DNA of 64,000 nucleotides from Balanoglossus misakiensis (lineage: Eukaryota > Animalia > Hemichordata), in the NCBI GenBank assembly GCA_040954595.2, contig CM082579.2, positions 1,253,908 to 1,317,907 of the forward strand, in the 5' to 3' direction. Positions 1-52,446 of this stretch are shown here, one piece after another. Both the position numbers and the translations under genes were made by a program. Under the pieces are notes generated by a model. The model searched no databases. It saw nothing but the letters and a program-made list of their open reading frames with translations, and was not told the DNA's origin. Each line of letters starts with the position of its first letter. Within the stretch, counting starts at the first letter, position 1.

Positions 1-1953
1 GAAAGCAAATGGATTTTCAGCTGATCAGTCATTTTGACTTGGGAAATCCAGAAATAGCTTTGACATGACAATCACTTCTCTTTCTTACCAACAGTAACAT
101 TGCTTAACTATTCTTCCAGTATTACCCCATCAGCATTATGTTTACATTTCCTTATGAATCACCGTATAGTGGTCTTTAGCTTTAAATATTTACACACTAA
201 CAGTTAAAGTCAGATTTGCAGAACGACTGCAACTTTTCAGCCATCTCATACATTCCCCTTACACACCCAAAACTCCTTCACATACACATTTGAAAACTAT
301 CACATGGAGATACCATATGTATATACCACAAAACCAAAGAGCTACTTGTATTTTTCTTACCTAACATATTTGAAGCCCAGTCCCCAAACATACCGTTCCC
401 TAAACCATATCATCTCTCTGTATAGTTTTCTATTTAAACTTTTTGTAATTGTTATAATTCTATTTTCTTGCATGGGAATTATATTTAGAAGGCAAACTTA
501 TGTCTTTTTTACTGTTTAAAAATAGACAAGTCTCTGACTTGTCATCCTGTCTTTTAGTTTTACTCCCATCTTGGTTGTGTATTAACTGTACAGCATTTGT
601 ACTCCCAGTGTGTGAAAAAAATAAATTTATATAAACCATCAACATATTGGAACATCCAATAATTGTGTCAGTGTCATTGTATTATGTGGAAAAATGAAAC
701 TGTGCCCTGGAAAATCTATTCTGCTTCAAAATGATTCTTTAAAATGTTAATGATTGTAAAAATGGCGTGAAAGTCAAACGGCTTAAATCTTTTGGTGTCT
801 ATTCGTCGTGTATGGCGTACTTCAATAACTTGATATAAACCCAAATTGAGGTTTGGCGAGAGGGCGCTATATACCCGACCATCAACTCATTTGGAGCTGA
901 TGACGTCACATGCGTACGTGCCCGATGCGCTCCCAACTGCTTCCCCCACCCTGGCACAAACATATGGTTCGGCCATCTTTCTCTGGAATCACCGATCTCT
1001 GCGCTGGGCTCGACCTTTGGCGGGGTTTCATTTCTACCTCGCACACGGCTCGGACGCACAATAGAAAATTCCTGATCAATAGAATAACTTTAGGGCCTAA
1101 ATTTAAATGTTTCGAGAAAACACGAAAGAAAACTGTTACTTACGTACGCAATTGGACTGCAAGCATGGAGAAATGGCACCCTTGATTTTCGTCAAGTCAC
1201 TTTCCATGACCGTTGGCTTATGTACATCATCTTAAAGGCTATACACATTTGGAAACTCCAGTCCATATCGTCATGACCTTGACTTTCACTTGGTTGTCGG
1301 AAATTGCTCCGGGAAATGAACAGGTCGTTGTCGCTCCTTCAGCCATGATGTTTGTACGTCAACGACTAAGTATCGAATGATGGAAGTGGCACCTCACTGA
1401 CCATCTGGACAAATGAACTGGCAGTCAATTATCCAATCAAAATGTGTCATGCACCAGGGGCATTTTGAGAAGCTTGTGATTGGCTGATGTGATTGAGAAG
1501 TTGTTTAGCATACCAAGATCACAGAATTTGCATACGTGACCATATAATTATTCATGTTTCCTTTCAGTGGGAAAGACATAACCACACAACCAGACAGAGT
1601 GGATTACTATGTTACATGAGTTTATTAATTAATTTGCATTCGCTGCGATCACAAAATAGAAGCGATAGTAGTACATGTAGGGATTGCCATCCAATAAGTT
1701 AAAAATCAAACAAAATCTGCGATTCAATTGTCATCATCTGCTCATCAACAGTCCCTGGATCTGCAAGGTAAACAATTCAGTTGAAGATCAAAAGATGTGA
1801 AATGGTTTCGAAAGAAACTGTCAACTTAAAAAGTCATCAGACATGAGGAACTGTTTGTGTAAATTCTTTTCTTGTGATCTATGATTTTTCCAAATACAAT
1901 GCCGATGACAAGAATTTACAGTTTAATTAATTAATTAATCAATGTAAGTACCT

Positions 1954-2431
1954 CTACGGTTCAACGGGGCATGGGTCTGTACACACTTCGGGGCCGAGTA
2001 CGGCACAGCAGTAGAATTCACTACAGGGACAGTTTTCAGGTTCTACTCCAGACCCGTTGAGGCCAATCAGTGCATCCAGCAACTGATTTTCTGCTTGTAC
2101 CGATGGATTCATGTCGATCGAGATTTTAACCGGAGTGTCCCTAAAATCACCTTGGTGAAAAAGAACACATACAAAGTGTGAGTTTACATGATTATCAAAA
2201 ACGAGTGTCGCTTGTTTGAAATGAGACTTCAAATATCAAGAGAGTCTGATTTGGAAAATGCGTGACTTAATTTGGGCATTGGTTACGCGACATCGATAGC
2301 GGACAGCTCGCCGGCTCTCCCCTGAGAGAATTGTTAAATCACAGAAACAAACAAATATATATGTACTCACCGAAACACTCGACTGTAGCTATGACGACAC
2401 AGAGAACACCCAGAATGAATACACCCCTCAT
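1954..2431 (-). CDS. Small secreted Cys-rich peptide precursor, paralog A (85 aa, most divergent copy)
   Basis: Coding exons 2431-2371 (MRGVFILGVLCVVIATVECF+G, donor GTGAGT) and 2150-1954 (acceptor tttcaccaag; GDFRDTPVKISIDMNPSVQAENQLLDALIGLNGSGVEPENCPCSEFYCCAVLGPEVCTDPCPVEP*), joined by a phase-1 intron. Non-coding exon 1 ends at 2681. A 3' UTR exon starts at 1760, with AATAAA at 1626-1621. Confidence 0.88.
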
Positions 2432-2436
2432 GATTA

Positions 2437-2560
2437 ACTGAAAATATATAATGATTCACAGAATTCACTGAAAATGTATAATTATTTCACAGAATTCAAT
2501 GAAAATATATAAGTATTTCACAGAATTGAATGAAAATATATAATTATTTCTCAGAATTCA
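2437..2560. repeat. ~31-bp tandem repeat x4 in intron 1 of paralog A
   Basis: Unit approximately aMtgaaaatRtataattatttcacagaattc, repeated four times and overlapping the exon-2 acceptor. Confidence 0.85.
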
Positions 2561-2760
2561 AAATTGTTAGTTGTTGAGATATTCCAGTTATTGCGAGCTA
2601 AACCGTTAAAACAATAGTCTACCAACAACTCGAAAACACAACAAAACAAATGTAATATAAAATAATAAATTGTATATTACCTCGTCGTGGTGGTACACAA
2701 CCTACAGCTTGTTTGGCGAGAGTTTTTCCAATACTGTTTTTATTAAAAGCCAGTCCGTTC

Positions 2761-2786
2761 TATTTATTAAACCGACTTGCGTGACA
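2761..2786 (-). promoter_or_regulatory. TGTCACGCA box + TATA-like element of paralog A
   Basis: tgcgtgaca at 2778-2786 (TGTCACGCA on the minus strand), then AATAAATA at 2768-2761. The same arrangement occurs in all seven paralogs. Confidence 0.7.
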
Positions 2787-4027
2787 GTTTTACCACTATG
2801 CGTGTTAAACCCCACTCGTGCCGTTAGCGTCGACAATTGCCTTCTCCTGCTCGTCGTATTTTCATATTTGATGTCTCCTCATTAGCTTTGCTGATATTTT
2901 TTATGGCGTCTTTAGTCTCGTAATTGGTTGGATGGTTTTATTTCACACATGTCGCGTGTGAGTCTCGTTAACTAAACCGACTGTAGCGTTTAGACACGAT
3001 ACGATCAGTTACTTCGTGTTTTCCTCTAAGATCATTTGTTTTCGTTTTCCACTCGTATTTACCAATTGGTCTATTGCAGGACCAACTGAGAGTGAAAACA
3101 CGCAACAGTTTATTTTATCATAACTTTGCGACACAAATCCCATTTACGTCTCCTTAAAATTCAAAAAGCTGGGATATTGATATAATTTATTCCCTATACG
3201 AGAGTTAGGTATGCGTGCAAGAAAAGTGCAGATTGCAATATTCACCATTCTCACTAAACACATATTGGCCTATACATTACGCAATATTTATTATAGATTG
3301 TGATCATTCAACTTGTAAAATAATAATACGCTTTTAATGCGATGCGACATTAATCACCGACATTTCATATTCCTGCATGCAATCATGATACGTTCAGGTG
3401 TAATTTTGAAAATACACGTATAAGGCCTTTTTGTAGACATTGAACACAATAATTTATAATTAACACTTTGCCACGTGCACGTCAAGTTATTATACTTTCC
3501 AACATTTATCGTCAGAAGAACAATATATTCAGTTGTCAGTATATTTGGGAACTTCAAAACTTACGAAAATCTCTCGCTATCGCTAGTGCGGTCGAATATT
3601 GCCGATCCGATTTCTTGTTATAGAGATTAATGATCTGACATGAAACGACAACATGGAATTTTCTCCATTTGGGAACCCTAATTTCCTAGAAATTGGGTAG
3701 AACGAACGCTGGTGATGCATAAACTCACAATCAAGATAATGATGTCAAGCCTTTGTTAGCGTGGTGGCTTTAGTCCGAAAAAATGCTGATTCTCAGCAAT
3801 GGCAATCGACTATGGCGTGAGTGTGCATACATTTACCAGTCCATAGTAAAATCAGTCGAGAAGAAAAAAAGTAATCGCGATGGAGTGATTTTATTGGCTC
3901 GCAAAACTTATCTGATTAAATTATACAACTATATACTTTTGCCATTAACGATTCAGCACCTCACTGTGTGCTCAAATTCCAGGTATTTCCATTACCAAGT
4001 TCGTTTTAACACGAAAAGACAAATCAT

Positions 4028-4053
4028 TGTCACGCATACAATACTGTTATAAA
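4028..4053 (+). promoter_or_regulatory. TGTCACGCA box + TATAAA of paralog B
   Basis: TGTCACGCA at 4028-4036 and TATAAA at 4048-4053; non-coding exon 1 ends at 4140 (cag|gtaaat). Confidence 0.75.
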
Positions 4054-4612
4054 TTGAAGTCGACACACAGCTCATCACTATCGGAGTTTTTCCTGAAAGA
4101 AGCAACTTTCTGCAGACGAAGTGATCCACTAGTAAAACAGGTAAATATACAAACTATACTTATTTACAAAGCCTTTCTAGCACCTATTCTCCAACACTTG
4201 GCTGACAATAGTGTTAACCGAGCATGTAGAAAGTCATACGCCGTACTGGTTGAGCATGCTGTCGGTATTGTCATGGATACTAACGAAAGTTGCTACCGCA
4301 AATGTGCATGCTTACTCTAGTATATCGGTTCATAAATCCGACAAACAGTACATTTTGTTGAATTTGCAGTAGTACTTTAAGGTCTGGATGGAATATCTTC
4401 GACTTTCAAATGAACAAAAAGTACATCATCATCGCCAATTCGTAAACTCTTAAGCACCTATATTCAATGTCACATTTTGCATTTTTTTGTACTATTCATG
4501 TTTATTTCAAACTCTTTCTACAGACCAGATTTTTAACTACAATCAGTCATGTCCAGATCTATACATTAAGTATTAAATATCCAAATTGTATTTTCTCAGC
4601 TCTACTGTCACC

Positions 4613-5235
4613 ATGAAGACCGCATGTGTTTTAGTTTTCTTCTGTGTGTGTGCCGCCATTGCGACAGTTCAATCTTTCGGTAAGTGTTACAGTTCGACAT
4701 GTTTACATTTTGATCACATTTTTCTGCGTTTTGTACGTTTGTGTACTTATCTTTGATTTGACAGACTTAGAACCGTTACTATGATCTACAGAACCTTGCT
4801 ACAAGTATCTATCCAACAAGAATGTATATATAGGCCAGGTGCATGGTTGGTGTCTATTGATGCAACTTTCCCAATCGGTTTTACGTGATATGAGATACAA
4901 TACTGCAGCCCCAGTATGCCTTACATCATTAATGATTATTTCCACAATTAATGAATTCAATTACACGCTGTCAGATTTGATTATAATGTCACAAGTGCCA
5001 TATATTATAGAATGTTTACAGAAAAATATATTCGACTATCGCAGGTGATTTCAGAGATACTCCTGTGAAGATACAAATCGATATGACGCCAAGCAAATCC
5101 TTCCAGGAAGACTTCGTCGACGCGTTGGTCTCCTACAACAACGAAGGTTCAATTGCAATCGATTGTAGCATCTGTCTCCACTGTGTTATGTACGGCTATG
5201 GTGCCTGCCCAGCAGGATGCCCTGGCTGTACTTAA
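4613..5235 (+). CDS. Small secreted Cys-rich peptide precursor, paralog B (85 aa)
   Basis: Exons 4613-4679 (MKTACVLVFFCVCAAIATVQSF+G|gtaagt) and 5045-5235 (GDFRDTPVKIQIDMTPSKSFQEDFVDALVSYNNEGSIAIDCSICLHCVMYGYGACPAGCPGCT*). The 3' UTR intron spans 5249-5661, with an AATAAA run from ~5824. Not in the ORF track. Confidence 0.92.
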
Positions 5236-5372
5236 TTCTTTCCAACAGGTATGTTAGGAGTCACAGCGATTTGTTCCATATTTTAAATGATTGTCAAAAC
5301 ATCATTTTGAACTAAGTGATTAGTTGATTGATTCTACAGCTATGAAGCTTTCTGACTGCATACATAGATGAG

Positions 5373-5581
<209 letters not shown>

Positions 5582-6580
5582 AGCAACAGTGTTTAGCAAA
5601 GAATACCTTTTAATGAAAACAGTTGTCAAGTGCTAACTTCGTCACACTCTTTCCTTTCTAGTTTTTCGTCGTCGGGGAATTGTGAAAGCCAAACTTTCGA
5701 CACCTTAAGCAACGGAACTGACAATATCTTCACGACTGAGTGTGTCTACATCATTAACATGTACCTAAAGTTTGGTTTCACTTGGAATGATCTTGTGGTG
5801 TTATGTATCTTATGGAAAGCAGAATAAATAAATAAATAAATAAAATAGAATACGGCTACCAGAGTTGTTTGTTCCTTGTGCTTAAAGTCACATGCACGCA
5901 TATACTTGTAATTTTTTGTCTATAAACGTTGTTTTGTGTCTTAATGTATCCGAAATGAGTATCATAGCCAACCAGGATAGACTACGAACCAAACAATCAG
6001 AGTTCATACTTTTGTGAAAGGTCAGAAAAGAAATGTTATTGCAAAGTTCATGTTGCCTTCCATTCGGTAGTTGCAACAGTAAATAAGCGTCTGCAAATAC
6101 AGTAGTCCCACTTTGTGAAAAGGCCGATGCTGCTATATATGGTGGTCTGATATTGAATGAGTTGAGTGTTTGTCAATTAACATTGCTGTTGCCATGGAGA
6201 GGTAAACCAATGTAATCAAATATAGAAATAATGACCATTAACGTTTGTTTATGGGCGAGGGCGAGGGGAAAGCCAACAATTCCTAGCCCATGAATTTTGG
6301 CTTTCTTCGAGCTTTCGGTAATGTTGAGTGATTGAAATAGCGTGGCAACACTCTTTTATGAGAAGGCAAAAGTTTTGATAACAAATGTCATCTGGCAATA
6401 GCGTGACGATATATGATATATGGCAGAACAGTAAAATCAGTGGCGAAGAAGGAATATTTCTCACGTAAATCAATTGGGATGATTGATTGGGCTTGCACAA
6501 AAAGTATTTTGAGTTCATTACACAATGATACTAAATGCGTGTCCCAACACTCGATTTGCTCAAGAAATGACAGGTAACCT

Positions 6581-6604
6581 TGTCACGCATATACGTTTAT
6601 ATAA
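6581..6604 (+). promoter_or_regulatory. TGTCACGCA box + TATATAA of paralog C
   Basis: TGTCACGCA at 6581-6589 and TATATAA at 6598-6604; exon 1 ends at 6693 (cag|gtaaat). Confidence 0.75.
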
Positions 6605-7063
6605 GTGTGTTGGATCATAACATTGACTATTTCATAAGGATATTCTTGAAAGGAGGAACTTTCTGCAGACAAAGTTGTCCTACTGACAAACAGGTAAATT
6701 TGTAAAATTTTATTTCTGAAAACTGGCAGATGGCACTGTATTTGTTTTAATCGCTCATAGAATATTTCAAAGTGGGACTACAAATAAGGAAGTGTGAAAC
6801 CGTGAAAACGTTTCTGTATATCCTGTGCTATAAGCTTGATTAGAAACTTAATTCTTCGACTACAAATATTTCTCAACTATATTGCAAGAAAACAATTCAG
6901 ATTTATTCAGGTGAAACTTCCAGTAGTGGTATCTTACTGAGAAAATCGACTTCACAGAGAATACATTGTGAACAAATAAATGAAAAGTGAATCTCAAACA
7001 TGAGTCAATCTCTTAACAGAGTTTTAAAGTTGACGTTGTTCCTTTCGCAGCTCTACTATCATC

Positions 7064-7456
7064 ATGAAGATCGCATGCGTTTTAATTGTTGTCTACTGTG
7101 TCGTCATGTCGACAGTGCAGTCTTTCGGTGAGTACAATTAATAAATTTCATGACGTTTTCTCCGTAAATTTACAACATGGATTGGCGGCGATTTTTATTT
7201 CACATTGGTGAAAATTGTGTTCTTTCATTCAAAATTTTGTACAGTTTCACATTTTTTATACACCGCAGGCGACTTCAGAGATACTCCCACTGAGATAACC
7301 ATCCATTTGACCCCGAAAGCGGATTTCCAGCGAGATTTCATCGATTATCTCATACTCGTGGGAAGTGGTGGTTTTCAGGCGAGCTGTTGCTGCAACAGAA
7401 TTTGTTGCCAGATTTTTGGATATGGGTATTGTCCCGCCGGTTGCCTTCAATGCTAA
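7064..7456 (+). CDS. Small secreted Cys-rich peptide precursor, paralog C (83 aa, 8-Cys core)
   Basis: Exons 7064-7127 (MKIACVLIVVYCVVMSTVQSF+G|gtgagt) and 7269-7456 (GDFRDTPTEITIHLTPKADFQRDFIDYLILVGSGGFQASCCCNRICCQIFGYGYCPAGCLQC*). The UTR intron spans 7471-7827, with AATAAA near 7992. Confidence 0.92.
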
Positions 7457-8935
7457 AAACTTCAAGTCAGGTACGATACTGAGGAACTGTTAATTGTTTT
7501 GTACTTTAATAATTATAATCGCTTCGTATCATATTATCTTCATGATTTTATATTAAAATATATTGGGTCAAGTGTCGTGCCGCATCACATCACATCACAC
7601 ATGTCATGTCATGTCATGTCACATCACTCACGTCACATCACATCATACATTCTGTTTGGCAAGTTCCGTCAAATAAGTTTCGCGAAGTAATTATGTAAAT
7701 CTGAAGTTTCGTAGATGTCGATGACACAGACGCACGCCAACACGGGCATGAGCTTCCGTGGTTTGCACTGGTGTTAATATAAATATCATAAATCAGTTCT
7801 CACTGCTACACACCCTTTCCCTTTCAGATGCTCATCACAGAAGAATCGTGGACTTTAAACCTACTGAAAACACCGTGGCCGGATCAGGGCTCGGACAAAG
7901 TGCTTAACATCTGTATACTTATTCAGTTTACCATCTAGCCTAAATGACTGGCTGTAGCAGCATGCATGTTATTAAGAGTAGCTCACTGATAAATAAAACG
8001 TTATGAAATAAGATTCGTTACAACACTACACGTGTCCAGACTCTTTGTTCTCTCGGGACCTTATCTGTGCTAAAGCACTTGTCCGCTGAGATAGTTCTGG
8101 TGAATTGCAATGTGGTGAATGGTGTGAGGGAATGGCAGGGAGGTGGGGACGGGAAGAAAGGGGGATCAGAATGAAATAAGTAAAGAAGAGATTGCGAAAT
8201 GAGGGAAGGAGATTTCCGAAAGAAAAAGGAATACAAAATGTACGAGGCTTGACAAACAGACTGTCATGTCAAACACTTTGCAAGACAGAGGAGGAAGGGG
8301 AGATGTTAAAATCCCCACACAGCTTCTTACAGAATAAAACTGAAATGTTCTGCGAAATTTCTAACATAGTCCACCTTTGCCACCGGCGACTTATAATAAA
8401 CCGGAAGAGAAGACGGCTTTCATATAGGTATATAACTGGAATGAAACTGAAAAATCGGGAGAAACATCGTGTTATTCAAAGATTGAGCTCCACGATAGAC
8501 GACAAAATGATTCATGTTAGTGGCTCTACACAAGCCACTTCAAGAACACGCTCCAAGTGGACACAAGGGAAATTGAAGGTTTCCTGATTTGATTTAAAAT
8601 AAGCGAACGTTCATTTTCAAGTTCACTTCAGATTGCCCATGGACTCGTAAGCATACTTCAACAATTTAATTAGGGGAAGTGGCATTATTATTTTTTGGTC
8701 AATTTGAATTTATTCCTCTGACTTCAAAGCAAATTACAACCAGGGTATAAATAATTTGTTGAAACTGGAACAGTCTTAAAAAGACAGTTTCTCGTAAACT
8801 GCCTTGGAGACATTTCATTAATCACGGACATGATTTTGAACTATTACTCAATTATAGAAACTTTTCTTTTTGACGTGTGTGGAACACCACTTGTGCTCAA
8901 CTTCCAAGTGTAAGGAAGTTCAGGCATCAGATAGT

Positions 8936-8960
8936 TGTCACGCATTCACATGTATTTAAA
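8936..8960 (+). promoter_or_regulatory. TGTCACGCA box + TATTTAAA of paralog D
   Basis: TGTCACGCA at 8936-8944 and TATTTAAA at 8953-8960; exon 1 probably ends at 9050 (aag|gtacat). Confidence 0.72.
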
Positions 8961-9479
8961 CTGGCGTTGACACAAGCTTCCCTACTCCTGCCGAGGTAAT
9001 TTCGAAATAAGGAACTTTCTGCAGACAAAGATTTCCTGCTGGTTAATAAGGTACATATGCAATCTATTCGACCGTCAATATTAGGCCCAATGCTTGCCGG
9101 GCTTAGAATTCCACCAGTCACGTGTAATGGATGAACGTGTAGTTGAATGCCATGTTGTTGTTATTCTTCACCATAAGGAAACAGCATAATTGTGCTCTAA
9201 TATAAGCTTGGTTCGCGGGGAAATGCATGTCAGTAGAAATATCCGCAAAAATGTTCTTGCCCTTTCTTCAAATGCATGTCAAATTTATTATCAGAAAATA
9301 GTCCCTTTCTAGAAACACTTTTATTTTCCCGGACGGCTAATTTGTTGATTTCGTCAATATCTTCATGAGTTTCCCTTGGATCATGTGAGATAGGATTACT
9401 GAAGTTTTGTCCATAACTCAAAAAATATATTCATCAGATATCGTTTTTAATTTTTTTTTTCAAAAGTTTTGCTGTCAGT

Positions 9480-11043
9480 ATGAAGACCGCGTGCGTTCTG
9501 ATTGTCATCTTCTGTGCCGTCATTTCGACAGTCCAATCTTTCGGTGAGTACAATCTTGAATCTGCTGTTACGACACGCTGGCCGTTCAGTTCCGAAACAG
9601 GGCAGTGAGCAAATATAGACTAATACTGAATGGCTCGCTTTGGTGAACCAACCAGCGCAGCACGCAACAAAGACGGTCAACAATAGGCACACCACACGTT
9701 ATTTCCTTGCTTATGGAAACTTTTAATTACTACAACTAAACATTGGTAAATATAAAAAGATTGTACACTGGGAAGAAAGCACACAAAAATAAATGACTAC
9801 CTTAAATGTGGCCAGGTGTGGGAAATGAAAGACTAAAGTCTTAGGTTCTGTAGCGCACGACGAACGCGACCAGCACCACGGCAGTCCCAACAGCGACGTT
9901 CAGTCCCAACAACGACGTTCAGTCCGAGTAGCGTTCTGGCACAATTCCCCGGTAGACGGCACGGCTTTCAGACGAATTCCCCCATGAGGTAGCACGACTT
10001 CTGGGCGCGGTTTCCAGACCAGTGCAGCATGAAATATGGCACAGCTTCCAAGTCGGCGAGGAACAGAACAGCTCACTCGGGCAAGTCCAAATTAGTAGCT
10101 ACGCCGCAACACAACGTGCGGGCTTTTTATATGGGGAAAATAATGAATGCACCACACCTGGTCACGCAAATATTCAAATTACGAAAGTAAGCGAAAACAC
10201 ACCTGGTCACAAAACAACAGCAAACTTCTCCTACGTAACACTGCTAACTGCATTACTTTGTATTTTGAGTACGTACTGCCACACATTTGCTGCTTGATGT
10301 TGTCTGTTGTATTTTTTGAGTATATAGCCTACTATGTATGCATGTACTATTTATTTCATTTTCGTATAAAACTGAACAATTCCGCCAAAATTCACCTAGA
10401 CTCATTGAAAATTAACTTTTAGTTTGGAGGCGTGAAAACTCCCATAAGTGTTCTTTTATAAACTTATTAGTCATATAGAAACTTTTTTTTATATATTTGG
10501 TGCCTGTGGATAACACAATACCAAGAACATTACGCCCAGGGTATATTCTCAACGACCAATGGTGTAAACGTTGTATAATCGTCACTGTCTACAACTTGCT
10601 GGTTGATTATTGGTATACATAAACAATCTGATTTGTACTCCCCGCGCCATGTGCTACAGAGCGAATATAGACACTACAATAAGAATTAGTTTATTTGACG
10701 CCCTATTATGTCTACATGACCCATTATGCGTGGAAGACAACACGGTTCGTAGACTTTTATGGGTATAGCAAATTATAAATACTATATGTAAATTTTCATC
10801 TGGCTTGTGTGGGAAGTAACAGTTTTCACAGACTACGTTTCTGTAACTCTAACAGGCGATTTCAAAGATACTCCCGTGGAGATTGTCATCCATATGGAGC
10901 CAAAGAAATCCTTCCAGGAAGGTTTCGTCGATATGTTGATCTCCCAAGGCACCGGTGGGTCAATTGCATCCAACTGTTGCGACCCTTACTGGTGTGTTAT
11001 TTACGGCTACGGTTACTGTCCAGCAGGATGTCCTACCTGTTAA
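9480..11043 (+). CDS. Small secreted Cys-rich peptide precursor, paralog D (83 aa)
   Basis: Exons 9480-9543 (MKTACVLIVIFCAVISTVQSF+G|gtgagt) and 10856-11043 (GDFKDTPVEIVIHMEPKKSFQEGFVDMLISQGTGGSIASNCCDPYWCVIYGYGYCPAGCPTC*). The UTR intron spans 11057-11282, with AATAAA at 11422. Confidence 0.92.
9566..10240. mobile_element. Solo LTR (Gypsy-type, 675 bp) in intron 2 of paralog D
   Basis: Starts TGTTACG and ends CGTAACA (TG...CA with a 7-bp terminal inverted repeat). It is flanked by the 4-bp direct repeat CTGC (9562-9565, 10241-10244) and is absent from the paralogous introns. Confidence 0.8.
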
Positions 11044-12449
11044 TTCTTTCCGTCAGGTATGTCAGAAGTGTCAGCGATTTGTTCCATATTTTGAATGCCA
11101 GAACATCTGAACTAAGTGATAAGTTGATATGACTCTACAGCTCTGAATTTGTCAGACTGCATGCACAGACGAGAGTTATAAAGCTGGACAGGGTCATTTT
11201 TTTATGAAATTGTCTACAAGCTGTTAAACCACTTAATGTCAAATCGTCCAATTCTCACTATGTCACACCTTTTCCTTTCTAGTGTTTCATCGTTGGAGGA
11301 TTGTAGAAGAGAACCCCCATATGCTGGAGAACAATGCAAAGTGCTTCATAACGCTACACACCACAACACCATCTCCAAGACAGGATTGACTAGCGATTTC
11401 TTGTGTGCTTTAATTTGTGGAAATAAAGAAAATTATAAGTAGAAATAAACAGCCCAAGACTCTTTGATGTGTGACATAGAATTTATAGTTAATAATAGGC
11501 CAAAATGCTTTAAATAGAACAGAGCATTTGCCGATGTGCTTTATAATTAATTCAGAACGGTACTGATCTGTAGCGTTACGTGTTTTTACATCTCATCCTT
11601 CGGACGTTTTCCTCTTTGGTGCTTCTGTGGTGAATTAACCACATCCAAAAGTTGGAGAGTAAATCTCCACCTCCACATAACCGGCCGATCGCAAACCTTT
11701 TGTTGACAGAAATTTGATCGTTGGTTCTCATCTCTCTCTCTCCCATCTCCTCTCTTCTCTCGTCTAAAATGTCACCACATATAATATACATCAGTCAAAT
11801 ATTAAGTCATAAAAAGAAGACGCCATCTTAATCTAGGAAATGTATATGTGCTGTGCAGGTAATGTACATCATAGTGCATATGTAGATATATAGTATGCAA
11901 TTCTGTGTAAGCATAGGAAATGAAAAAAGACTCCGCGAATCTTACTAAAAGTTCCACCCTTGCCACGGCAACGCACACTATAGTAAACCTAAGGCGAAGA
12001 GGGCTTTCAAAATGAAAACAAAACACGTGAAACATGATGGTATTAAATGATTGAGCCACTACTAGAACACACTTCAAGTGGAAACAGAGAAAATTGAAGG
12101 TTTCGTGTTCTGAGTTAAAATAAGCGAAAATTCACTTCACTTTAGATTGCCGATAGACTCGTCAGCATGATACTTCAACAATTTCATTAGGGGAGGTGGA
12201 ATTATTTTTTCGGTCTATTTGCATTTATTCCTCTGATTTCAAAGCAAATTACAACCAATAGCGTGAGGATATAAATAATTCGTCGAAATGTTGGATCAGT
12301 CGTAAAATGACATTTTCTCGTAAACTGCCTTTATCAATCACGAAAATGATCTTGGCCATATTGCTCAATTATAGAATCTTTTGTTTTTGACGTGTGTGGA
12401 CCACCACTTCTGCTCAACTTCCAAGAAGGAAGTTCATGCATCAGATATT

Positions 12450-12474
12450 TGTCACGCATACACATGTATTTAAA
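12450..12474 (+). promoter_or_regulatory. TGTCACGCA box + TATTTAAA of paralog E
   Basis: TGTCACGCA at 12450-12458 and TATTTAAA at 12467-12474; exon 1 ends at 12558. Confidence 0.72.
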
Positions 12475-12701
12475 CTGGCGTTGACACAAGACTCTTCACT
12501 CCTACCAAGGTAATTCCGAAAGAAGGAACTTTCTGTCGACAAAGATCTCCTGTAACAGGTAAATATGCAATCTATACTACCTTCGATTTATGCCTAATGC
12601 AGGCTGCACGTGTTGACGCGATTGATGTCTAGCACCTGTTAGTCTTCGTCGTGACTAAAATCCTCATTGTTTTTTTTTTTCTCCAAAGTTTTCCTATCAC
12701 T

Positions 12702-13052
12702 ATGAAGACCGCCTGCATTCTGATTGTCATCTTTTGTGTCGCCGTTTCGATGGTGCAATCTTTCGGTGAGTACAATTCGTACCTAATTGTCACATTCTGA
12801 AGGTTTTATTTTTTGTGACATCTAAAATGGAAGTGCTTGCATTTGTTATTCCTTTGCCTTGTACAGCTCCGCTAAACGTTATTATATTTCGCCGCTGGCT
12901 TGGAGCCAAGCAAATCCTTCCAGGAAGAATTCGTCGACGCGTTGGTCTCCTACAACAACGAAGGTTCAATTGCAGTCAATTGTTTAAGCTGTATCCAGTG
13001 TATTATGCACGGCTATGGTGCCTGCCCAGCAGGATGCCCTGGCTGTACTTAA
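12702..13052 (+). pseudogene. Paralog E of the Cys-rich peptide family: probable pseudogene (exon-3 acceptor deleted)
   Basis: The signal exon 12702-12765 is intact (MKTACILIVIFCVAVSMVQSF+G). Relative to paralog F, ~120 nt containing the acceptor and GDFKDTPVEIVIH are replaced by 24 nt of filler (12877-12900). The remainder reads EPSKSFQEEFVDALVSYNNEGSIAVNCLSCIQCIMHGYGACPAGCPGCT* to 13052. The best remaining acceptor (12866) gives a shifted frame. Confidence 0.8.
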
Positions 13053-13499
13053 TTCTTTCCAACAGGTATGTTAGGAGTGACAGCGATTTGTTCCATATTT
13101 TAAATGATTGTCAAAACATCATTCTGAACTAAGTGATTAGTTGATTGATTCTACAGCTCTGAATCTGTCTGACCGCATGCATGCACAGACGAGCGTTATA
13201 AAGTTGGACAGGATCAACACTTATGATATTGTTCGCCATTTGTTAAATTAAAGTCAAATCTTCATATTTTCACTATGTAACAATCTTTCCTTTCTAGTGT
13301 TTCATCGATGGAAGATTCTAGAAGATAAAACACATATTCGGTAGAACAATGCAAAGTGCTTCATAACGCTACACACCACAACACCATCTCCAAGAAAGGA
13401 TTGACTAGCGATTTCTTGTGTTCTGTAATTTGTGGAAATAAAGAAAATTATAAGCATAAACGTTTGAATTTGTTGTGCCATATCACAAACGGATCGTTC

Positions 13500-14420
13500 C
13501 ACTGTATCTAGCCATCTACCAATATCACGTTCATCCCTAGTATTTCGACTGTCCCTGGGGAAACGCTCAAGTATCTACCCCGACCCCTGCCTGACCTCCT
13601 CCCTGTGTCCAATGAGACACAGTCCCTGTGGATGAGACGAGCGGAGTTTTCAGGGCTTCTTCAGAAATGACAGTAGAATTAACGTCTGTTCTCTCGAACC
13701 CGGAATCAACTTTACTGTTGAAAACAACCTCCCTATCCTGCGATAAATTAGCATCCCCCATATACACGTGGCCATGATACGATTTTACCGGACATAATGC
13801 TTTCTAAGAAAACTGCACTAATCTAAAATCGTACAGCCGACACAGAGATCTGACGGGACGATGAATGCCTAAATGAACACTGTATAGCTTTCAAATCACT
13901 GCAAAAGAAGGCGATACAAAAGCCCAGAGTGAATGTGTTGCGCTGACCTGCGTGAACAGATCCCGTAAGGAGTACGGTGCCCAGAGCGCTCAACACGCCA
14001 CGAACTTCTGTGACCTCTCTTCTGCACACAACAATAAAAGGTTCTCAACAAACAACATTCATCGACCAAACCTGACCGCTGCGTCGATCCAGACCTTGGC
14101 GAATATTCGGAAGGGGCTCCTGAACCAAAGTTGCCCCTAACAAACCCACCGCTGCCACCAATTGTAACGGAAATCCAAACGGTCGCGGTCCACCTCTGAA
14201 AACTGGTAGCGCGCAGGCGCACACAGCCTCTCACAAACACTGAAACAGCGCCATCTCTACACACGGCCGGAACTCGACGGAAAGCATCGGCTCACACCGA
14301 ACTGCTACGGTAAACACGTCATAGAACTCGCGATCGGTGACCCGGGGCTGGCTATCCGGTAGGGATAAAACAGGACTAATTAATCAGGCTCGAACCTAAA
14401 AAAACATGCTGAGAAGTGCT
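13500..14420. mobile_element. Unclassified GC/CpG-rich insertion, probably a transposon fragment
   Basis: Abrupt compositional change relative to the flanks; not shared with the duplicated peptide-gene units. No intact ORF or terminal repeats recognised. Confidence 0.3.
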
Positions 14421-14446
14421 GGACATGATAAAACTGTCTACAAATT

Positions 14447-14448
<2 letters not shown>

Positions 14449-14485
<37 letters not shown>
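14449..14485. repeat. (GA)n microsatellite
   Basis: Direct reading of the sequence. Confidence 0.9.
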
Positions 14486-14486
<1 letters not shown>

Positions 14487-14949
14487 GTTTGGTAAATGGT
14501 TTTCTGATATCTTCATATCATAATATCAAATGTCATAAATGTCGACCATTATGCATCGTATTTCCCCACACCTCTTTCTGGAGTGCCCAACTGAAGAAGC
14601 AGAGGAGTCAGGGTAACCGAGACTAGCAGACATACAAGTCAGTCCAATAACGGTCACCATGGCTACACCACCACGCAAGCAAAGCCACACAGAAACACCA
14701 TGTAGAATAATAAATCACATGGAATAGCAATTCCATAACAATATAAAATCAGTAACGAAACCATGTTGACAATCAGAAATTAAATTAGCAACATGTTTAC
14801 ATAAAAAAAAAATCTCTAAAACCTTACTGAATAATGGTAACGATGACGCTTGCCTGTTTTTTCTTACATCCTGCTTATCACCCTTTTAAAAATCGACACG
14901 ACGTTGTTACATTTAAAAAATGTTGGAAAAATTCCATTGAATTCCAACC

Positions 14950-15870: not shown

Positions 15871-16181
15871 GCCGATGCACTCATCAGCACGATACTTCAA
15901 CAATTTAATTAGGGGAGGTGGAATTATTTTTTCGGTCAATTTGCATTGATTCCTCTGACTTCAAAGCAAACTACAACCAATAGCGTGAGGGTATAAATAA
16001 TTTGTCGAAATATTGGATCAGTCGTAAAAAGTCGGCTTCTCGTAAACTGCCTTGGAATAATTTTATTAATCACGAAAATGATTTTGGCCCCATTACTCCA
16101 TTTTAGAATCGTTTGTTTTTGACGTGTCTTTAACACGAATTCGGCTCAGCTTCCAAGAAGGAAGTTCATGCATCAGATATT

Positions 16182-16206
16182 TGTCACGCATACACATGTA
16201 TTTAAA
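16182..16206 (+). promoter_or_regulatory. TGTCACGCA box + TATTTAAA of paralog F
   Basis: TGTCACGCA at 16182-16190 and TATTTAAA at 16199-16206; exon 1 ends at 16290. Confidence 0.72.
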
Positions 16207-16743
16207 CTGGCGTTGACACAAGCCTCTTCACTCCCACCAAGGTAATCCCGAAAGAAGGAACTTTCTGACGACAAAGATCTCCTGTAACAGGTAAATATGC
16301 AATCTATACTACCTTCGATTTATGCCTAATGCAGGCTGCACGTGTTGACGCGATTGATGTCTAGCACCTGTTAGTCTTCGTCGTGACTAAAATCAGAGTC
16401 CACAGCATAATTGTGGTTCTCCACTTAGAAATATAAGTTTAGTTCTCGGGAAAATGTATGTCAGTAGAAGTATCCGCAAAATGTTTCCTTTTGTGTCAGG
16501 CTTACCTCAGTCTTTCAAATGCCTGGCCGGCAAGCTCCTTATCAGAAAATGCTCAATTCGTACAATCATATTTATTTGCTCAGACGTCTAATTTGTATTG
16601 AGGAATTACGTCAATAACATTTTGTGTTTAACTTAAATTATGCGCTGTGAGATGGGATTACTGCAGTTGGTTTTGTCTAACTCTAAAAATATATTCATCA
16701 GATATCCTCATTGTTTTTTTTTCTCCAAAGTTTTGCTATCACT

Positions 16744-17188
16744 ATGAAGACCGCCTGCGTTCTGATTGTCATCTTTTGTGCCGTCGTTTCGATGGTGCAA
16801 TCTTTTGGTGAGTACAATTCGTACCTAATTGTCACATTCTGAATTGTTTTATTTTTTGTGACATCTAAAATGGAAGTGCTAGCATTTGTTATTCCTTTGC
16901 CTTATACAGCTCCGCTAAAATTAAGTTTAACTCATTGAAAATCAAGTTTAAGTTTCTAAGCGTGCAAATTTCACAAACTTTGTTTCTGTAACTCTAACAG
17001 GCGATTTCAAAGATACTCCCGTGGAGATTGTCATCCATATGGAGCCAAGCAAATCCTTCCAGGAAGACTTCGTCAATTTGTTGATCCAAGGCAGTGGTGC
17101 TTCAACTGCAACCGATTGCAGCAGCTGTACATGGTGTCAGATTTACGGCTATGGTTACTGCGCACCAGGATGCCCTGGCTGTAGTTAA
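16744..17188 (+). CDS. Small secreted Cys-rich peptide precursor, paralog F (83 aa)
   Basis: Exons 16744-16807 (MKTACVLIVIFCAVVSMVQSF+G|gtgagt) and 17001-17188 (GDFKDTPVEIVIHMEPSKSFQEDFVNLLIQGSGASTATDCSSCTWCQIYGYGYCAPGCPGCS*). The UTR intron spans 17202-17406, with AATAAA near 17539. Not in the ORF track. Confidence 0.92.
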
Positions 17189-18272
17189 TTCTTTCCGACA
17201 GGTATGTTTTTAAATGATTGTCAAAACATCATTCTGAACTAAGTGATTAGTGACTAATTCTACAGCTCTGAATCTGTCTGACCGCATGCATGCACAGACG
17301 AGCGTTATAAAGTTGGACAGGATCAACACTTATGATATTGTCTGCCATTTGTTAAATTAAAGTCAAATCTTCATATTTTCACTATGTAACAATCTTTCCT
17401 TTCTAGTGTTTCATCGATGGAGGATTCTAGAAGATAAAACACATATTCGGTAGAACAATGCTTCATAACGCTACACACCACAACACCATCTCCAAGAAAG
17501 GATTGACTAGCGATTTCTTGTGTGCTTTAATTTGTGGAAATAAAGATTATGCATAAGTAGAATTAACCGGCTGAGACTTGTTTCAATGTGACATATAACT
17601 TAATAGTCTAAGAGGATGTTGATAATACACAGAGGGGTGCACGGTATTGGGTACAACACCATACTTTAAGGAATCGAACAAAGATCTGCAAATGATAGAC
17701 GGATGGCGTGCCTCCCAAATGTGTTGGGGCTGGAGGCCTTCGCGAGTCTCGTCGGGGTGTCGGTTGATGTGAAGAGACAGTACTCATACAATCCACTTAC
17801 GCAATCAGTCACCTGTTTGATTTCGTGAGTTAATTCGTTAAAAAGACACCGAACATTTTTTGATGTAGTATGACGCAATTAGCATTTTATTTCTTAACCT
17901 TACAGAGATGATATCAACATTTCATCAAGGGATATGAATTCCAGGTGCATCAAACTCTAGGGGTCGTCATTGACTAAGGTCCTGAGAAATCGCCAATATC
18001 TGAAATATAAATTGCATAAGTGTCAATTAGTCTGGGCATTCGTATATTCTTAACTTTGCGATTTCTGGAAAAGCCTGAAATATTTATAATATTTTCTGGT
18101 TTGATGATAATCAGTCAATTTGGCCATAAAATTTTAGTGTATCGTCTATATGTATCGTTATACTGGATCGGGAGTGACCGTGCTTTCATAGGCGATTAGA
18201 AGCGGGACGAGAGCTTTGACGCTTCCGAAGTTTCACATGCAAATCTTGAAAGAAACAGAAATCCCCAATACC

Positions 18273-18657
18273 TTAATGACAGATGCAGCCTGCTGGACAC
18301 ACACCGTAACCATGAACGATACAAGACGCTTTGTTGCAGCAATCAACTGCAGCTGTGCCGGCACTTCCCACCGTCATCAACTCTTCAACGAAGTCCTTCT
18401 GGAAGTTTACGTCAGGGGTCATATGAATGACAATTTGAACAGGCAGATCTCGGAAGTTTTCTGTTGAGACAGGAAATAATTATGCAGCCAGTTTTATTTG
18501 ACCTGTTTCGATTCGATTCTCTCTCTCTCTCTCTCTCAATACAAAGGTTAAAAACTCGTCTTTTATAAAAGAATACAAAAGTTTCGCGAAACTTACCAAA
18601 AGATTCCACCGTTGCCACGGCGACGCACAATAATCCAAAGACAAAAACAGATTTCAT
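18273..18657 (-). CDS. Small secreted Cys-rich peptide precursor, paralog G (82 aa)
   Basis: Exons 18657-18597 (MKSVFVFGLLCVAVATVESF+G nt|gtaagt) and 18460-18273 (ENFRDLPVQIVIHMTPDVNFQKDFVEELMTVGSAGTAAVDCCNKASCIVHGYGVCPAGCICH*). Exon 1 ends at 18792. A probable UTR exon starts at 18074, with AATAAA at 17891-17886. Confidence 0.9.
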
Positions 18658-18885
18658 ATTGGTATCTGGAATAAAAATGAACAAATCAGATGAAACATCT
18701 AGGAGAAGCTTGACCAATAAACGACGAAACTAGCGGGCAGCAACACCATGGAAATTCATGGAAAGGATTAAAAAAAATAAGCCATATTTACCGATGTGAC
18801 GGGCAACTTGAAGTTCACAACTTTGTCAGCTGAAAGTTGTTTGCTTAACGATCGAATTGGATGCAGTCTTCTTCGCCCTCCGACT

Positions 18886-18909
18886 TTTTATACCCAGGTG
18901 TGCGTGACA
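18886..18909 (-). promoter_or_regulatory. TGTCACGCA box + TATAAAA of paralog G
   Basis: tgcgtgaca at 18901-18909 and ttttata at 18886-18892 (TATAAAA on the minus strand). Confidence 0.75.
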
Positions 18910-20998
18910 GCCACATAATTCCCGTGCAGCGATCGCGTTGTGCGTGATTTTATTGCACGTCGATCATCCTTGTCAGTTGTTACTTAATAGAAATGTCTAG
19001 CACATTATCTAACATCATCATGTGTCACGTTTTATGTTCAATTTATCAAAATCCATGATCATTTTCGTTCCACACAAATGTTTTTGACGTACGCTCTTAC
19101 TCCCTACACGCCAAGTCATTTCAGTTGATCAAAGAACCGGTGACTTACGATGCATGCCATGAAAGAAACTTTTAAATTTATTGACAACAGGACCGTTAAA
19201 TGCAACTCACAGAAGCTGCAATTGCTTTCATTACTTTCAATAGTGCTCCTCTTAAACTTAGATTGGTTCATTTAAGTAACTTTAATAGGGGGTATACACA
19301 TTCGAACTATCAATCCCTGAAACCCCTGATTATGACTGCACAGTTGCCTCACCCGTTTAAGATAGATGACTCAGTATACGACTACTCACAAGTTATAATA
19401 TTGTCATTTTCCTGCTTAATGTATACATATGTGTATGTACATATGATTTAAATGGTTTAATCATTAGGTGTTATAAAACTACCGTGTAAAACGCAAGGTC
19501 ACACATAAATATAGACATCGTGTTATATCACTGATGTATGCTGCATCAGACATATAGGTGGCGTCATATTGGTCTGATAACACAGCAAGATATTTTGTGA
19601 CAGCTGATTGCGCACAGAACACAGGTGACATGCCTTTGGCTGAAGTCGTGGTATTTCCTCTGATTCTCGTCTTTGTCACGGTGGTTGCCATAGCTATGAC
19701 CCTACCAGAATTTCACAGAAGATGGAAATTATTAAGTGACCGGCAATTTTTCTGATTACCGGTTGACGGTAAGTCATCAATGTGCTTTGCGACTTTTTTT
19801 GTTGTTCTGCCAAAATAAAAACATGTGACTGAGCATTGCTTGGTTTTTGAAGACAATGCAACCTGTTGTAAGTTTTCACGAAATCATAAAACCCACGTAT
19901 ATGAAAAGGTCATCTTGGAGGCTGAACCAATCGAACAGCCGGAACCGAAGATATACCAGTATCCAAACGATGTAGAATGGTTTGGCGCCCCCAAACATGT
20001 TCAATCCTATTTCAGTCGACGTCGGTTCCTTGAATAGGCGTCGATGAAGACACAACTTCAATGACATAGAATCAACTGTTCAAACCTCCGCTGATACAAA
20101 GCCGAAGAGCGTATTGGGATTTTTTTTTGTTTGAAAAGTGGACTTGCTTTGAACGATGTTCTCTTCATTGTTGTCAGCGCATTTACATTGTGATGGCAGC
20201 TGTAACCTCGTCAGTATTAAAGCGACATACAACATGTCCTGTCATCATAATTTAAACCAGTTGTCTAAGATAATGTACCCATTACTAACTTGAAGCTTAG
20301 TGCCTAACACCTCAAAACGATAACGTTAATATTGGATGTGTAAATTTAATTAATGTGGGTTCAAAGTGGTCCGACAAACCACATTAGAACCAAAAATTGG
20401 GCGGCGTATCTAAAAGGCCGCTATGTCTATTGGCATAGACGTGGTCTTAAGGAATTTCTTTTATACTGTATCTTCTGTTGACATTGACACTGCGGTTCTA
20501 TGGCTTCTTCACGTTCAAGGTGAAGAAATCTGGAAGGTCGAGGTTGCCCCTCCTTATGCGACGTCATAAACTACCTTGTTCATATTATTGGTGTTATTCA
20601 ATCGGTAGGGTGTTTCTCATGAACAATTTCGTCATCGTTTGATAATAAAATGACGAGTTTTATCACATAAATTTAGGCGGTGATAGATACCGGATATTTA
20701 TACGGATATCGAATTTAAAGTGTGGCCTGTTGTGCCCTGTGACTGGACTGTGAATCGTAGCGGAGCTCCGTGTGTGTGTGTGTGTGTGTGTCATTGAGGT
20801 GGGAGGGTCCCTATCAACGCATCATATGAATATTCATAAGGTTACTATGTGCGTGTTGAACTATTCAGTTTGTGAGTTACCTTTGTAACAGCTGTCAAAC
20901 GATCGACGTGCTGTGCGTAGTACGGCTCCACCCTGTACTCATCATAACCTAATTAATAACAAATTGATGTAAATTTCATATCGAGCTTATTTTTAACC

Positions 20999-51960: not shown

Positions 51961-52095
51961 ATTATCAAACGATGCGTCGTCGGGGGCTGTAAAAACACTA
52001 TCCGTAGTGTACATAGATTTCCGAAAAGCAAAGGACTGAGAGAAAAATGGGAGCGCTTCATACAAAACGGCCAAAAGGTCCATACATCACCGTAA
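51961..52095 (+). pseudogene. THAP zinc-finger N-terminus remnant (Kolobok transposase)
   Basis: IIKRCVVGGCKNTIRSVHRFPKSKGLREKWERFIQ...*: C-x4-C, HRFP and W of the THAP signature. No ATG at the expected start; truncated. Confidence 0.75.
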
Positions 52096-52446
52096 AGGTA
52101 ATGATGAATGGAACTGTACCGGTGTTATGCCAGTTTTGGGTAACCGGTCGCTTGTGAACAGGGAGTTTATCTGTGATATTTATGTATGAAATTTGTCGTC
52201 CCATTACGTTTTTTTCACAACAGAGATGTCAGCAATGATGTTTTAGTACGGACCGTGTCGGCATGGCGTGGTGCCGCGGACCGGGTTCTTTGTGTATATA
52301 TCGGTGACCAGACGAGCGCAGACCTCCGTATCGGGGAGGCAGATCGGCTACGAGAATATTTGAGTTTCACTGAACCACTCCATGAACATTTTATTGGACA
52401 TATTTATTGTAAAATAAAAACAAACAAACAGAAAATGACGCTTATT

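What the first reader, a model, noticed from the sequence alone, without database searches (positions are those of the whole stretch)
4028..4053. Invariant TGTCACGCA element 8-11 bp upstream of the TATA box in all seven peptide genes
Seen in sequence: the exact 9-mer is at 2778(-), 4028, 6581, 8936, 12450, 16182 and 18901(-), including A and G, whose upstream DNA is otherwise not alignable by eye. Established: GTCACGC is the core of Pax paired-domain sites, and its reverse complement contains GCGTG, the bHLH-PAS (AhR/ARNT) XRE core. Inference: one transcription factor co-activates the whole array in a specialised secretory cell type.
Basis: partly seen in the sequence, partly recalled or inferred. 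Interest (0 to 1): 0.7.

Follow-up and report, generated by a model that had tools for sequence, protein, structure and literature searches.

The report
AhR-type switches on acorn-worm peptide genes
Seven neighbouring genes for small cysteine-rich, probably secreted peptides in what is likely an acorn worm all carry the same 9-base element just before a TATA-like box, plus extra copies of its core further upstream, which likely lets one transcription factor, most likely the aryl hydrocarbon receptor, switch on the whole set.

Summary
Confirmed. TGTCACGCA occurs exactly 7 times (0.45 expected), once before each of 7 paralogous signal-peptide/Cys-rich peptide genes, 8-11 nt upstream of a TATA-like box. 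D/E/F promoters are recent copies, so there are 5 independent lineages, not 7. It is still the only word of 7+ bases that all share in 1.1 kb. New here: with the 9-mer excluded, its core GCGTG is the top 5-mer of 455 in the upstream 400 bp (11 vs 2.1). The full XRE TNGCGTG occurs 7 times vs 0.6 expected, while Pax (GTYAYG), Sim/Trh (ACGTG), TALE and MRE words are not enriched. One distal XRE is conserved in B, C, E and F. Best reading: a homotypic XRE cluster for an AhR:ARNT-type dimer (~0.55). Pax remains the rival (~0.2), since a PAX2 consensus probe contains the same 11 bases as genes B-F, but the RED half-site is missing. A neighbouring gene points to an enteropneust (92% to Ptychodera flava). 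No peptide relatives were found. No genome or RNA data were available, so start sites, binding and cell type are untested.

The parts
4028..4036 (+). Proximal element TGTCACGCA of gene B (TGCGTGACA on the other strand: XRE core plus ACA flank)
4048..4055 (+). TATA-like box of B (TATAAATT, spacer 11); Inr-like A at about 4077 (1 mismatch), inferred start
2778..2786 (-). Proximal element of gene A; the only proximal copy that is a full TNGCGTG
2761..2768 (-). TATA-like box of A (AATAAATA, 1 mismatch, spacer 9)
6581..6605 (+). Gene C element (6581-6589) plus TATATAAG (6598-6605); perfect Inr 31 nt after the first T of the TATA box
8936..8960 (+). Gene D element plus TATTTAAA (8953-8960); perfect Inr at +31
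12450..12474 (+). Gene E element plus TATTTAAA (12467-12474); recent copy of the F-type promoter
16182..16206 (+). Gene F element plus TATTTAAA (16199-16206)
18885..18909 (-). Gene G element (18901-18909) plus TATAAAAA (18885-18892); perfect Inr at +34
3813..3819 (+). Distal XRE (TGGCGTG) of B, aligned with C 6399-6405, E 12259-12265 and F 15981-15987; deleted in D
3757..3763 (+). Second distal XRE (TAGCGTG) of B, aligned with C 6338-6344
6338..6405 (+). Two distal XREs (TAGCGTG) of C; a further GCGTG core at 6537
12259..12265 (+). Distal XRE (TAGCGTG) of E
15981..15987 (+). Distal XRE (TAGCGTG) of F
2800..3105 (.). Upstream GCGTG cores of A at 2800, 2954 (TCGCGTG) and 3099 (TTGCGTG on the - strand)
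18942..19113 (.). Upstream GCGTG cores of G at 18942 and 19107 (TGGCGTG on the - strand)
1621..2768 (-). Peptide gene A: non-coding exon 1 (donor 2681), signal-peptide exon (ATG 2431), pro+Cys-rich exon (2150 to stop 1954), AATAAA near 1621 (3' end inferred)
4048..5844 (+). Peptide gene B: donor 4140, ATG 4613, coding exon 3 5045-5235, AATAAA 5823-5839 (3' end inferred)
6598..7997 (+). Peptide gene C: donor 6693, ATG 7064, coding exon 3 7269-7456
8953..11449 (+). Peptide gene D: donor 9050, ATG 9480, coding exon 3 10856-11043
12467..13442 (+). Gene E: F-like 5' part, B-like 3' part; normal exon-3 acceptor and start of the pro-region missing; probable pseudogene or truncated variant
16199..17544 (+). 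Peptide gene F: donor 16290, ATG 16744, coding exon 3 17001-17188
17886..18892 (-). Peptide gene G: donor 18792, ATG 18657, coding exon 3 18460 to stop 18273
4104..4125 (+). Second semi-conserved block in exon 1 (AACTTTC-N7-AAAG), also at 6657, 9013, 12527, 16259, 18838(-), degenerate at 2724(-); a full inverted repeat in C and G; function unexplained

Best explanation
The 9-mer is a conserved promoter element shared by all seven peptide genes, and it is likely the TATA-proximal member of a cluster of xenobiotic response elements (GCGTG cores) that an AhR:ARNT-type bHLH-PAS dimer would bind to switch the array on together. Shown: the invariant 9-mer, its fixed place before a TATA-like box and the exon-1 donor, the excess of GCGTG/TNGCGTG upstream, and the conservation of one distal site in four genes. 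Inferred: AhR would take the TGC half and ARNT the GTG half; the site at about -48 to -40 would act next to the TATA-bound machinery and the 1-3 distal sites would add strength; the ancestral gene had this arrangement and purifying selection kept it after each duplication while the spacer DNA diverged. The dimer probably acts as a constitutive cell-type activator, as invertebrate AhRs are reported to, in a peptide-secreting cell.
For: With the 9-mer excluded, GCGTG ranks 1 of 455 5-mers in -400..0 of A, B, C, D, G (11 observed vs 2.1; 0 of 1000 shuffles reached it; 1 of 300 shuffles had any word with so high a z). TNGCGTG: 7 vs 0.6, 0 of 500 shuffles; using only three distant promoters (A,B,G or A,C,G) 5 vs 0.5, 0 of 500. 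The rest of the same CpG-rich 21.5 kb holds 2.15 GCGTG and 0.86 TNGCGTG per 2 kb. In the same -400 windows ACGTG (4 vs 3.5), TCGTG (4 vs 3.1), Pax GTYAYG (3 vs 3.7), TALE TGACA (7 vs 6.7) and MRE (1 vs 1.2) are not enriched. The distal T(A/G)GCGTGA site aligns in B, C, E and F, and its next base is G in 3 of 4, where Pax needs C or A. The XRE DNA in the AHR-ARNT structure reads TCGCGTGACAAG, matching 8 of the 9 bases including the ACA flank (PMC11791172, passages). The core is given as NGCGTG, AHR on NGC and ARNT on GTG (PMC12808330, passages). CYP1A1 uses a cluster of seven such sites, and N = T or C is strongest (PMC4013641, first of 4 parts read); N is T in all 7 proximal copies. Invertebrate precedent: Spineless activates Rh4 through an XRE (PMC8259978, passages).
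Against: Only 1 of the 7 proximal copies (A) has the 5' T of TNGCGTG; B-F have A and G has G. The AhR core explains 6 of the 9 invariant bases; the other three need a flank preference or a second factor. B-F share 11 bases (TTGTCACGCAT) with a PAX2 consensus probe (PMC2832668, passages). Pax TCACGC is mildly enriched upstream (3 vs 0.6; 13 of 500 shuffles), though nested in GCGTG. In the -200 window the TNGCGTG excess is weak (2 vs 0.4; 31 of 500). Two of the 11 distal sites are homologous between B and C and so not independent, and D has lost its conserved distal site. The -1000 windows of A and B overlap. All seven proximal copies also fit the Sim:ARNT SELEX site DDRCGTG (PMC3896416, passages). 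That hemichordates have AhR is recalled, not checked. AhR was not found among the Schizocardium cluster markers, but that file was cut when stored. No binding, start-site or expression data.
Confidence: 0.55

Rival explanations
1. A non-Pax6 paired-domain protein (Pax2/5/8, Pax1/9, Pax3/7 or Pox class) binds the 9-mer through its PAI subdomain alone.
For: The PAX2 consensus probe contains TTGTCACGCAT, identical to B-F over 11 bases (PMC2832668). The Paired PHO site contains GTCACGC (PMC2612750, passages). GTCACGC plus W accounts for 8 of the 9 invariant bases.
Against: The RED-half positions after TCACGC (W-T-S-A-N-T-K in P6CON) are not kept: S matches in 1 of 7 genes, A in 0 of 7, T in 2 of 7. 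GTCAC is not enriched upstream (3 vs 3.3, rank 260 of 455), nor GTYAYG or KTCAYGC. The conserved distal site lacks the Pax flank in 3 of 4 genes. The two extra matching bases in B-F are shared by descent and differ in A and G.
Confidence: 0.2
2. Another bHLH-PAS dimer (Sim, Trh/NPAS1-3 or Dys/NPAS4 with ARNT), or a composite site in which a PAS dimer shares the element with a TALE protein on the overlapping TGACA, is the binder.
For: All 7 proximal copies fit DDRCGTG (Sim:ARNT SELEX), and TGCGTGR was common in fly midline/tracheal enhancers (PMC3896416). A second factor would explain why the three flank bases are invariant. A and G read TGACAG, the TALE site (consensus recalled).
Against: The preferred cores of these dimers, ACGTG and TCGTG, are not enriched at -400, whereas GCGTG with a 5' T is; ACGTG is only mildly raised at -1000 (15 vs 8.2; 13 of 500). 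TGACA is not enriched.
Confidence: 0.13
3. An uncharacterised, possibly lineage-specific factor or TATA-coupled core-promoter element, with fixed spacing to the TATA box (like the rhodopsin RCSI), reads the 9-mer.
For: The spacer is exactly 8 nt in three separate lineages (C, D/E/F, G) and the orientation never changes. All nine bases are invariant, more than any cited consensus demands.
Against: The same core recurs upstream in both orientations (7 of 11 reversed), as expected of an ordinary activator site. Fixed orientation follows from descent.
Confidence: 0.09
4. The element is a neutral leftover of duplication or gene conversion.
For: The genes are paralogs with clear recombination (B and E 3' exons 93.5% identical, E and F 5' regions 91-95%). 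B-to-E/F alignability begins right at the motif.
Against: Flanks are unalignable between A, G and the rest; a 9-base invariant run arose in at most 154 of 20000 descent simulations even with very generous identities; independent enrichment of the same core upstream.
Confidence: 0.03

Closest known systems
AhR:ARNT xenobiotic/dioxin response element (XRE/DRE) cluster, as in mammalian CYP1A1
   Same: GCGTG core; T at the N position; the same ACA 3' flank as the crystallised XRE; several copies per promoter in both orientations.
   Different: The best-kept copy sits 8-11 nt from the TATA box rather than hundreds of bases upstream. Six of 7 proximal copies lack the 5' T. The targets encode secreted peptides, not detoxifying enzymes. 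Ligand control is not shown.
Drosophila Spineless:Tango XRE in the Rh4 promoter, and the rhodopsin RCSI
   Same: An invertebrate AhR acting through an XRE on a terminal effector gene; a paralog family keeping one short element right upstream of TATA (PMC8259978).
   Different: The Rh4 XRE is distal and unique to one paralog; RCSI is a homeodomain site that varies between paralogs; both are neuronal.
Pax paired-domain site (PAX2 consensus probe, Paired PHO site)
   Same: GTCACGCA core; 11-base identity to the PAX2 probe in B-F.
   Different: No RED half-site and no adjacent homeodomain half noted; Pax-type words are not enriched upstream.
Signal/pro/Cys-rich peptide arrays such as conotoxin or invertebrate defence-peptide families (recalled, not tested)
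   Same: Tandem paralogs with conserved signal and pro-region and a variable 6-8 Cys C-terminal part on separate exons.
   Different: No sequence relative found. The pro-region is acidic and the Cys-rich part near neutral or acidic (-4 to +1), unlike typical cationic antimicrobial peptides.

Membership tests
AhR:ARNT XRE | Core NGCGTG | tested here: met
   7 of 7 proximal copies; definition from PMC12808330
AhR:ARNT XRE | Full consensus TNGCGTG at the proximal element | tested here: not met
   1 of 7 (A); B-F ATGCGTG, G GTGCGTG
AhR:ARNT XRE | Full TNGCGTG sites clustered in the same promoters | tested here: met
   7 vs 0.6 expected in -400..0 of five lineages, 0 of 500 shuffles; 7 of the 11 distal GCGTG cores carry the T
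AhR:ARNT XRE | Bound by AhR:ARNT and needed for transcription | not testable with these tools
   needs EMSA/ChIP and reporters
AhR:ARNT XRE | AhR and ARNT present and expressed in the producing cells | tested here: inconclusive
   no genome; not among Schizocardium markers in a truncated supplement
Pax paired-domain site | PAI half GTCACGC(W) | tested here: met
   7 of 7
Pax paired-domain site | RED half (T-S-A-N-T-K after W) | tested here: not met
   S 1 of 7, A 0 of 7, T 2 of 7, K 2 of 7; first T 5 of 7, all in the B-F clade
Sim/Trh/HIF CME-HRE or Dys/NPAS4 site | Preferred core ACGTG or TCGTG | tested here: not met
   proximal core is GCGTG; ACGTG 4 vs 3.5 and TCGTG 4 vs 3.1 upstream
MTF-1 metal response element | TGCRCNC (recalled consensus) | tested here: not met
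   the 9-mer does not match; 1 vs 1.2 upstream
TATA/Inr core promoter | TATAWAWR with an initiator about 30 nt downstream | tested here: inconclusive
   TATA 0-1 mismatch in 7 of 7; perfect Inr at +31 in C-F and +34 in G, 1 mismatch at +29 in B, none in A; no start-site data

The most novel reading that the evidence does not exclude
An acorn worm uses AhR:ARNT to run a battery of undescribed secreted Cys-rich defence peptides in its mucus-making epidermis, possibly in response to aromatic ligands such as its own halogenated phenols and indoles. That would place AhR's barrier-defence role, and perhaps its chemical sensing, at the base of the deuterostomes rather than in vertebrates.
Probability: 0.12. 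Interest if true: 0.85.

Novelty: new member of a known kind. Interest (0 to 1): 0.47.

Why it matters
The invertebrate AhR roles in the passages I read are mainly neuronal and constitutive, while ligand-dependent roles in barrier organs and immunity are described for vertebrates (PMC12808330). A compact XRE-bearing promoter kept across five diverged paralogs would give a direct reporter for AhR activity in a non-chordate deuterostome, and a test of when AhR took on secretory or defence targets and ligand control. The element is also a precise handle for finding co-regulated genes and the cell type that makes a peptide family with no detected relatives. If the binder is Pax or another factor, it remains a clean but ordinary case of promoter footprinting in a gene array.

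Tried and rejected
No genome is held for this window, so the proposed genome-wide scan could not be run. No RNA holder was listed for 2300-9600; this is no evidence on expression. Peptide relatives: the word-seeded search with the six-member exon-3 alignment (E left out) scored 0 of 9 candidates. The profile search of 1.84 billion representatives gave 2 hits: P0121 is a Thr/Gly-rich repeat protein matched in 7 stretches and was rejected; P0122 (3822 aa, 12 stretches) was not opened. Pfam gave nothing above cut-off for 6 peptides, PDB sequences 0 hits, the ESM Atlas no usable hit for B. Six peptide words occurred in 0 papers. The motif search of papers returned 574 papers; the 30 listed showed no relevant title, and the one opened was a primer match. 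An AlphaFold model of B exon 3 was too weak to search (pLDDT 61.5, pTM 0.27). The motif-plus-TATA scan of metagenome contigs gave 118 loci, 0 with tblastn or blastn similarity to the array, so chance matches. Rfam: 0 hits in 1-21500. Earlier scan findings: none. The HHIP-like exon did not place the organism (best 39%); the GRXCR exon did. The 21.5-64 kb background was rejected for CpG-containing words because it is CpG-depleted (o/e mostly 0.3-0.45 vs 0.83-0.93 in the array); local shuffles were used instead. kB and MRE sites are not enriched. The extended DRE consensus that I recall was not found in print (two ids not held), so it is not used as evidence. Passages of the P. flava ATAC paper mention neither AhR nor ARNT (PMC11618098); its supplements were not read and could bear on the motif.

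Full report
Observation. TGTCACGCA occurs exactly seven times in the window, at the coordinates given, against 0.45 expected; 0 of 100 shuffles reached seven. With one mismatch allowed the excess is modest (20 vs 12.4), so the signal is the exact word. Each copy lies upstream of one of seven paralogous genes (A-G); tblastn found no further member in the window. The genes share a layout: non-coding exon 1 with a donor 97-109 nt after the motif, an acceptor just before the ATG, a 61-67 nt signal-peptide coding exon ending in phase 1, and an exon coding an acidic pro-region plus a 22-25 residue part with 6-8 Cys; in A-F a further donor follows 2-14 nt after the stop (the script's donor pattern missed G). 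This layout anchors the motif independently of the TATA call. The best TATAWAWR match has 0-1 mismatch at spacers 9, 11, 8, 8, 8, 8, 8 (A-G). A perfect YYANWYY initiator lies 31 nt after the first T in C-F and 34 nt in G; B has a 1-mismatch one at 29; A has none. The motif would thus sit near -48 to -40. Start sites are inferred, not measured.

Independence. D, E and F promoters are 78-88% identical in the 100 nt upstream. E is 91-95% identical to F at the 5' end and 93.5% to B at the 3' end. It lacks the normal exon-3 acceptor, and the only in-frame AGs (3 of 10) lie inside the exon, so it is probably a defective chimera. The fair count is five lineages. Among them the upstream 100 nt are not alignable (z from -1.0 to 2.6), yet the 9-mer is the only shared word of seven or more bases in 1.1 kb. 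Unrelated windows gave a shared 9-mer in 0-1 of 2000 trials, and descent simulations in 0, 9 and 154 of 20000 at rising identity. The element has therefore very likely been kept by selection.

Organism. The neighbouring GRXCR exon is 92% identical to Ptychodera flava, 85% to Glandiceps talaboti and 81% to Saccoglossus kowalevskii, the only 4 hits at E <= 1e-10 among 24 candidates. The window is most likely from an enteropneust hemichordate close to Ptychodera. The hemichordate epidermis is described as highly secretory, and five secretory clusters are reported in Schizocardium (PMC13554239, passages); nothing here ties these genes to those cells.

Which factor. The 9-mer alone is ambiguous. 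The PAX2 consensus probe contains TTGTCACGCAT (PMC2832668, passages), the same 11 bases as B-F. The XRE crystallised with AHR-ARNT reads TTGTCACGCGA on its reverse strand (PMC11791172, passages), 8 of 9 matching. I therefore asked what else the promoters hold once the 9-mer is removed. In the 400 bp upstream of A, B, C, D and G, GCGTG is the most enriched of 455 5-mers (11 vs 2.1; 0 of 1000 local dinucleotide shuffles; 1 of 300 shuffles had any word that high), while GTCAC ranks 260; swapping F for D gives the same result. The XRE consensus TNGCGTG (PMC10570930, passages) occurs 7 times vs 0.6, and 5 vs 0.5 in only three distant promoters, 0 of 500 shuffles each. The excess holds at -300, -600 and -1000 but is weak at -200. 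The rest of the array region has about 2 GCGTG per 2 kb, and four control stretches hold 5 in 4.7 kb. ACGTG, TCGTG, GTYAYG, TGACA and the MRE are not enriched at -400. One distal site, T(A/G)GCGTGA, aligns in B, C, E and F (deleted in D), and a second in B and C. The Pax RED half is not kept (P6CON from PMC2612750, passages). These results favour an AhR:ARNT-type dimer.

Against this reading: six of seven proximal copies lack the 5' T; the core explains only six invariant bases; two distal sites are not independent; the TNGCGTG test is nested in the GCGTG result; and Sim:ARNT can also take GCGTG (PMC3896416, passages).

Mechanism. Inferred: an ancestral gene carried a TATA-proximal XRE and a few distal ones; duplication spread them, and selection kept them as the spacer DNA diverged. 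AhR on the TGC half and ARNT on the GTG half (PMC12808330, passages) would activate the array together, probably as a constitutive cell-type activator, as Spineless does at Rh4 (PMC8259978, passages). Clustered sites acting together are known from CYP1A1 (PMC4013641, part 1 of 4). Odds: AhR-type 0.55, Pax 0.2, other PAS or composite 0.13, unknown or core-promoter factor 0.09, neutral 0.03. The sites work like XREs, but the proximal element is not filed as a canonical XRE because the 5' T test failed in 6 of 7 and binding is untested.

The peptides. The exon-3 products are 43-63% identical to B. No relative was found in Pfam, PDB sequences, two large protein collections, the ESM Atlas or the paper library. 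The word-seeded search covered only 34-114 aa proteins, and small genes are often unannotated, so this is not proof of absence. Secretion is inferred from the hydrophobic N-terminal exon; function is unknown, and the Cys-rich parts are not cationic.

Other papers opened: PMC4833939, PMC4345280 and PMC2192461 (passages; nothing bearing on the site); PMC11618098 (passages); supplements of PMC13554239 (term search, one file cut).

Verdict. The element is real and likely functional. A promoter motif kept across a paralog array is a known kind of thing. The added value is the sequence evidence for an AhR-type regulator of an uncharacterised peptide battery in a hemichordate, which is directly testable. 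Interest 0.47.

Noticed in passing
window 1621-18892: The seven-gene family itself: signal peptide, conserved acidic pro-region (GDFRDTP...FQxDF) and variable 6-8 Cys C-terminus with a YGYG-C-P-x-G-C motif in B-G; no relative found. Probably the more novel object.
   Followed up: partly
window 12467-13442: Gene E is an F-like/B-like chimera that has lost the exon-3 acceptor, evidence of unequal crossing-over or conversion in the array.
   Followed up: partly
window 4104, 6657, 9013, 12527, 16259, 18838(-), 2724(-): Exon-1 block AACTTTC-N7-AAAG(TT), a full inverted repeat in C and G, kept between G and B-F; could be a downstream promoter element or a 5' UTR hairpin; no Rfam match.
   Followed up: partly
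window 1-24000 vs 24000-52000: Sharp CpG observed/expected step (0.83-0.93 over the array, 0.29-0.44 over the GRXCR1 and LIM gene bodies), consistent with an unmethylated tissue-restricted array beside gene-body-methylated genes.
   Followed up: partly
window 19630-20017 (+): Possible small two-exon gene for a protein with an N-terminal hydrophobic helix (MPLAEVVVFPLILV...), divergent from gene G; splice frame not resolved.
   Followed up: no
window 20999-32790 (+), 37700-52800 (-), 56000-62000 (-), 62424 onward (+): Flanking genes: GRXCR1-like glutaredoxin, a LIM-domain protein, a CKAP2-like protein and an HHIP-like protein; useful synteny markers for finding orthologous arrays.
   Followed up: partly
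window 14900-15500: Degraded stretch that reads like a LINE-type retrotransposon fragment (recalled resemblance; no Pfam hit for the one frame tested), just upstream of where F's promoter homology begins; it holds a near-match TGTCACGCT at 15274.
   Followed up: partly
window 2259(-), 10160(+): One-mismatch copies of the element (AGTCACGCA, GGTCACGCA) in the second introns of A and D.
   Followed up: no
window 8995, 12509, 16241: D, E and F carry a second donor-like AG|GTAAT about 12 nt after the predicted start, which could give an alternative very short exon 1.
   Followed up: no
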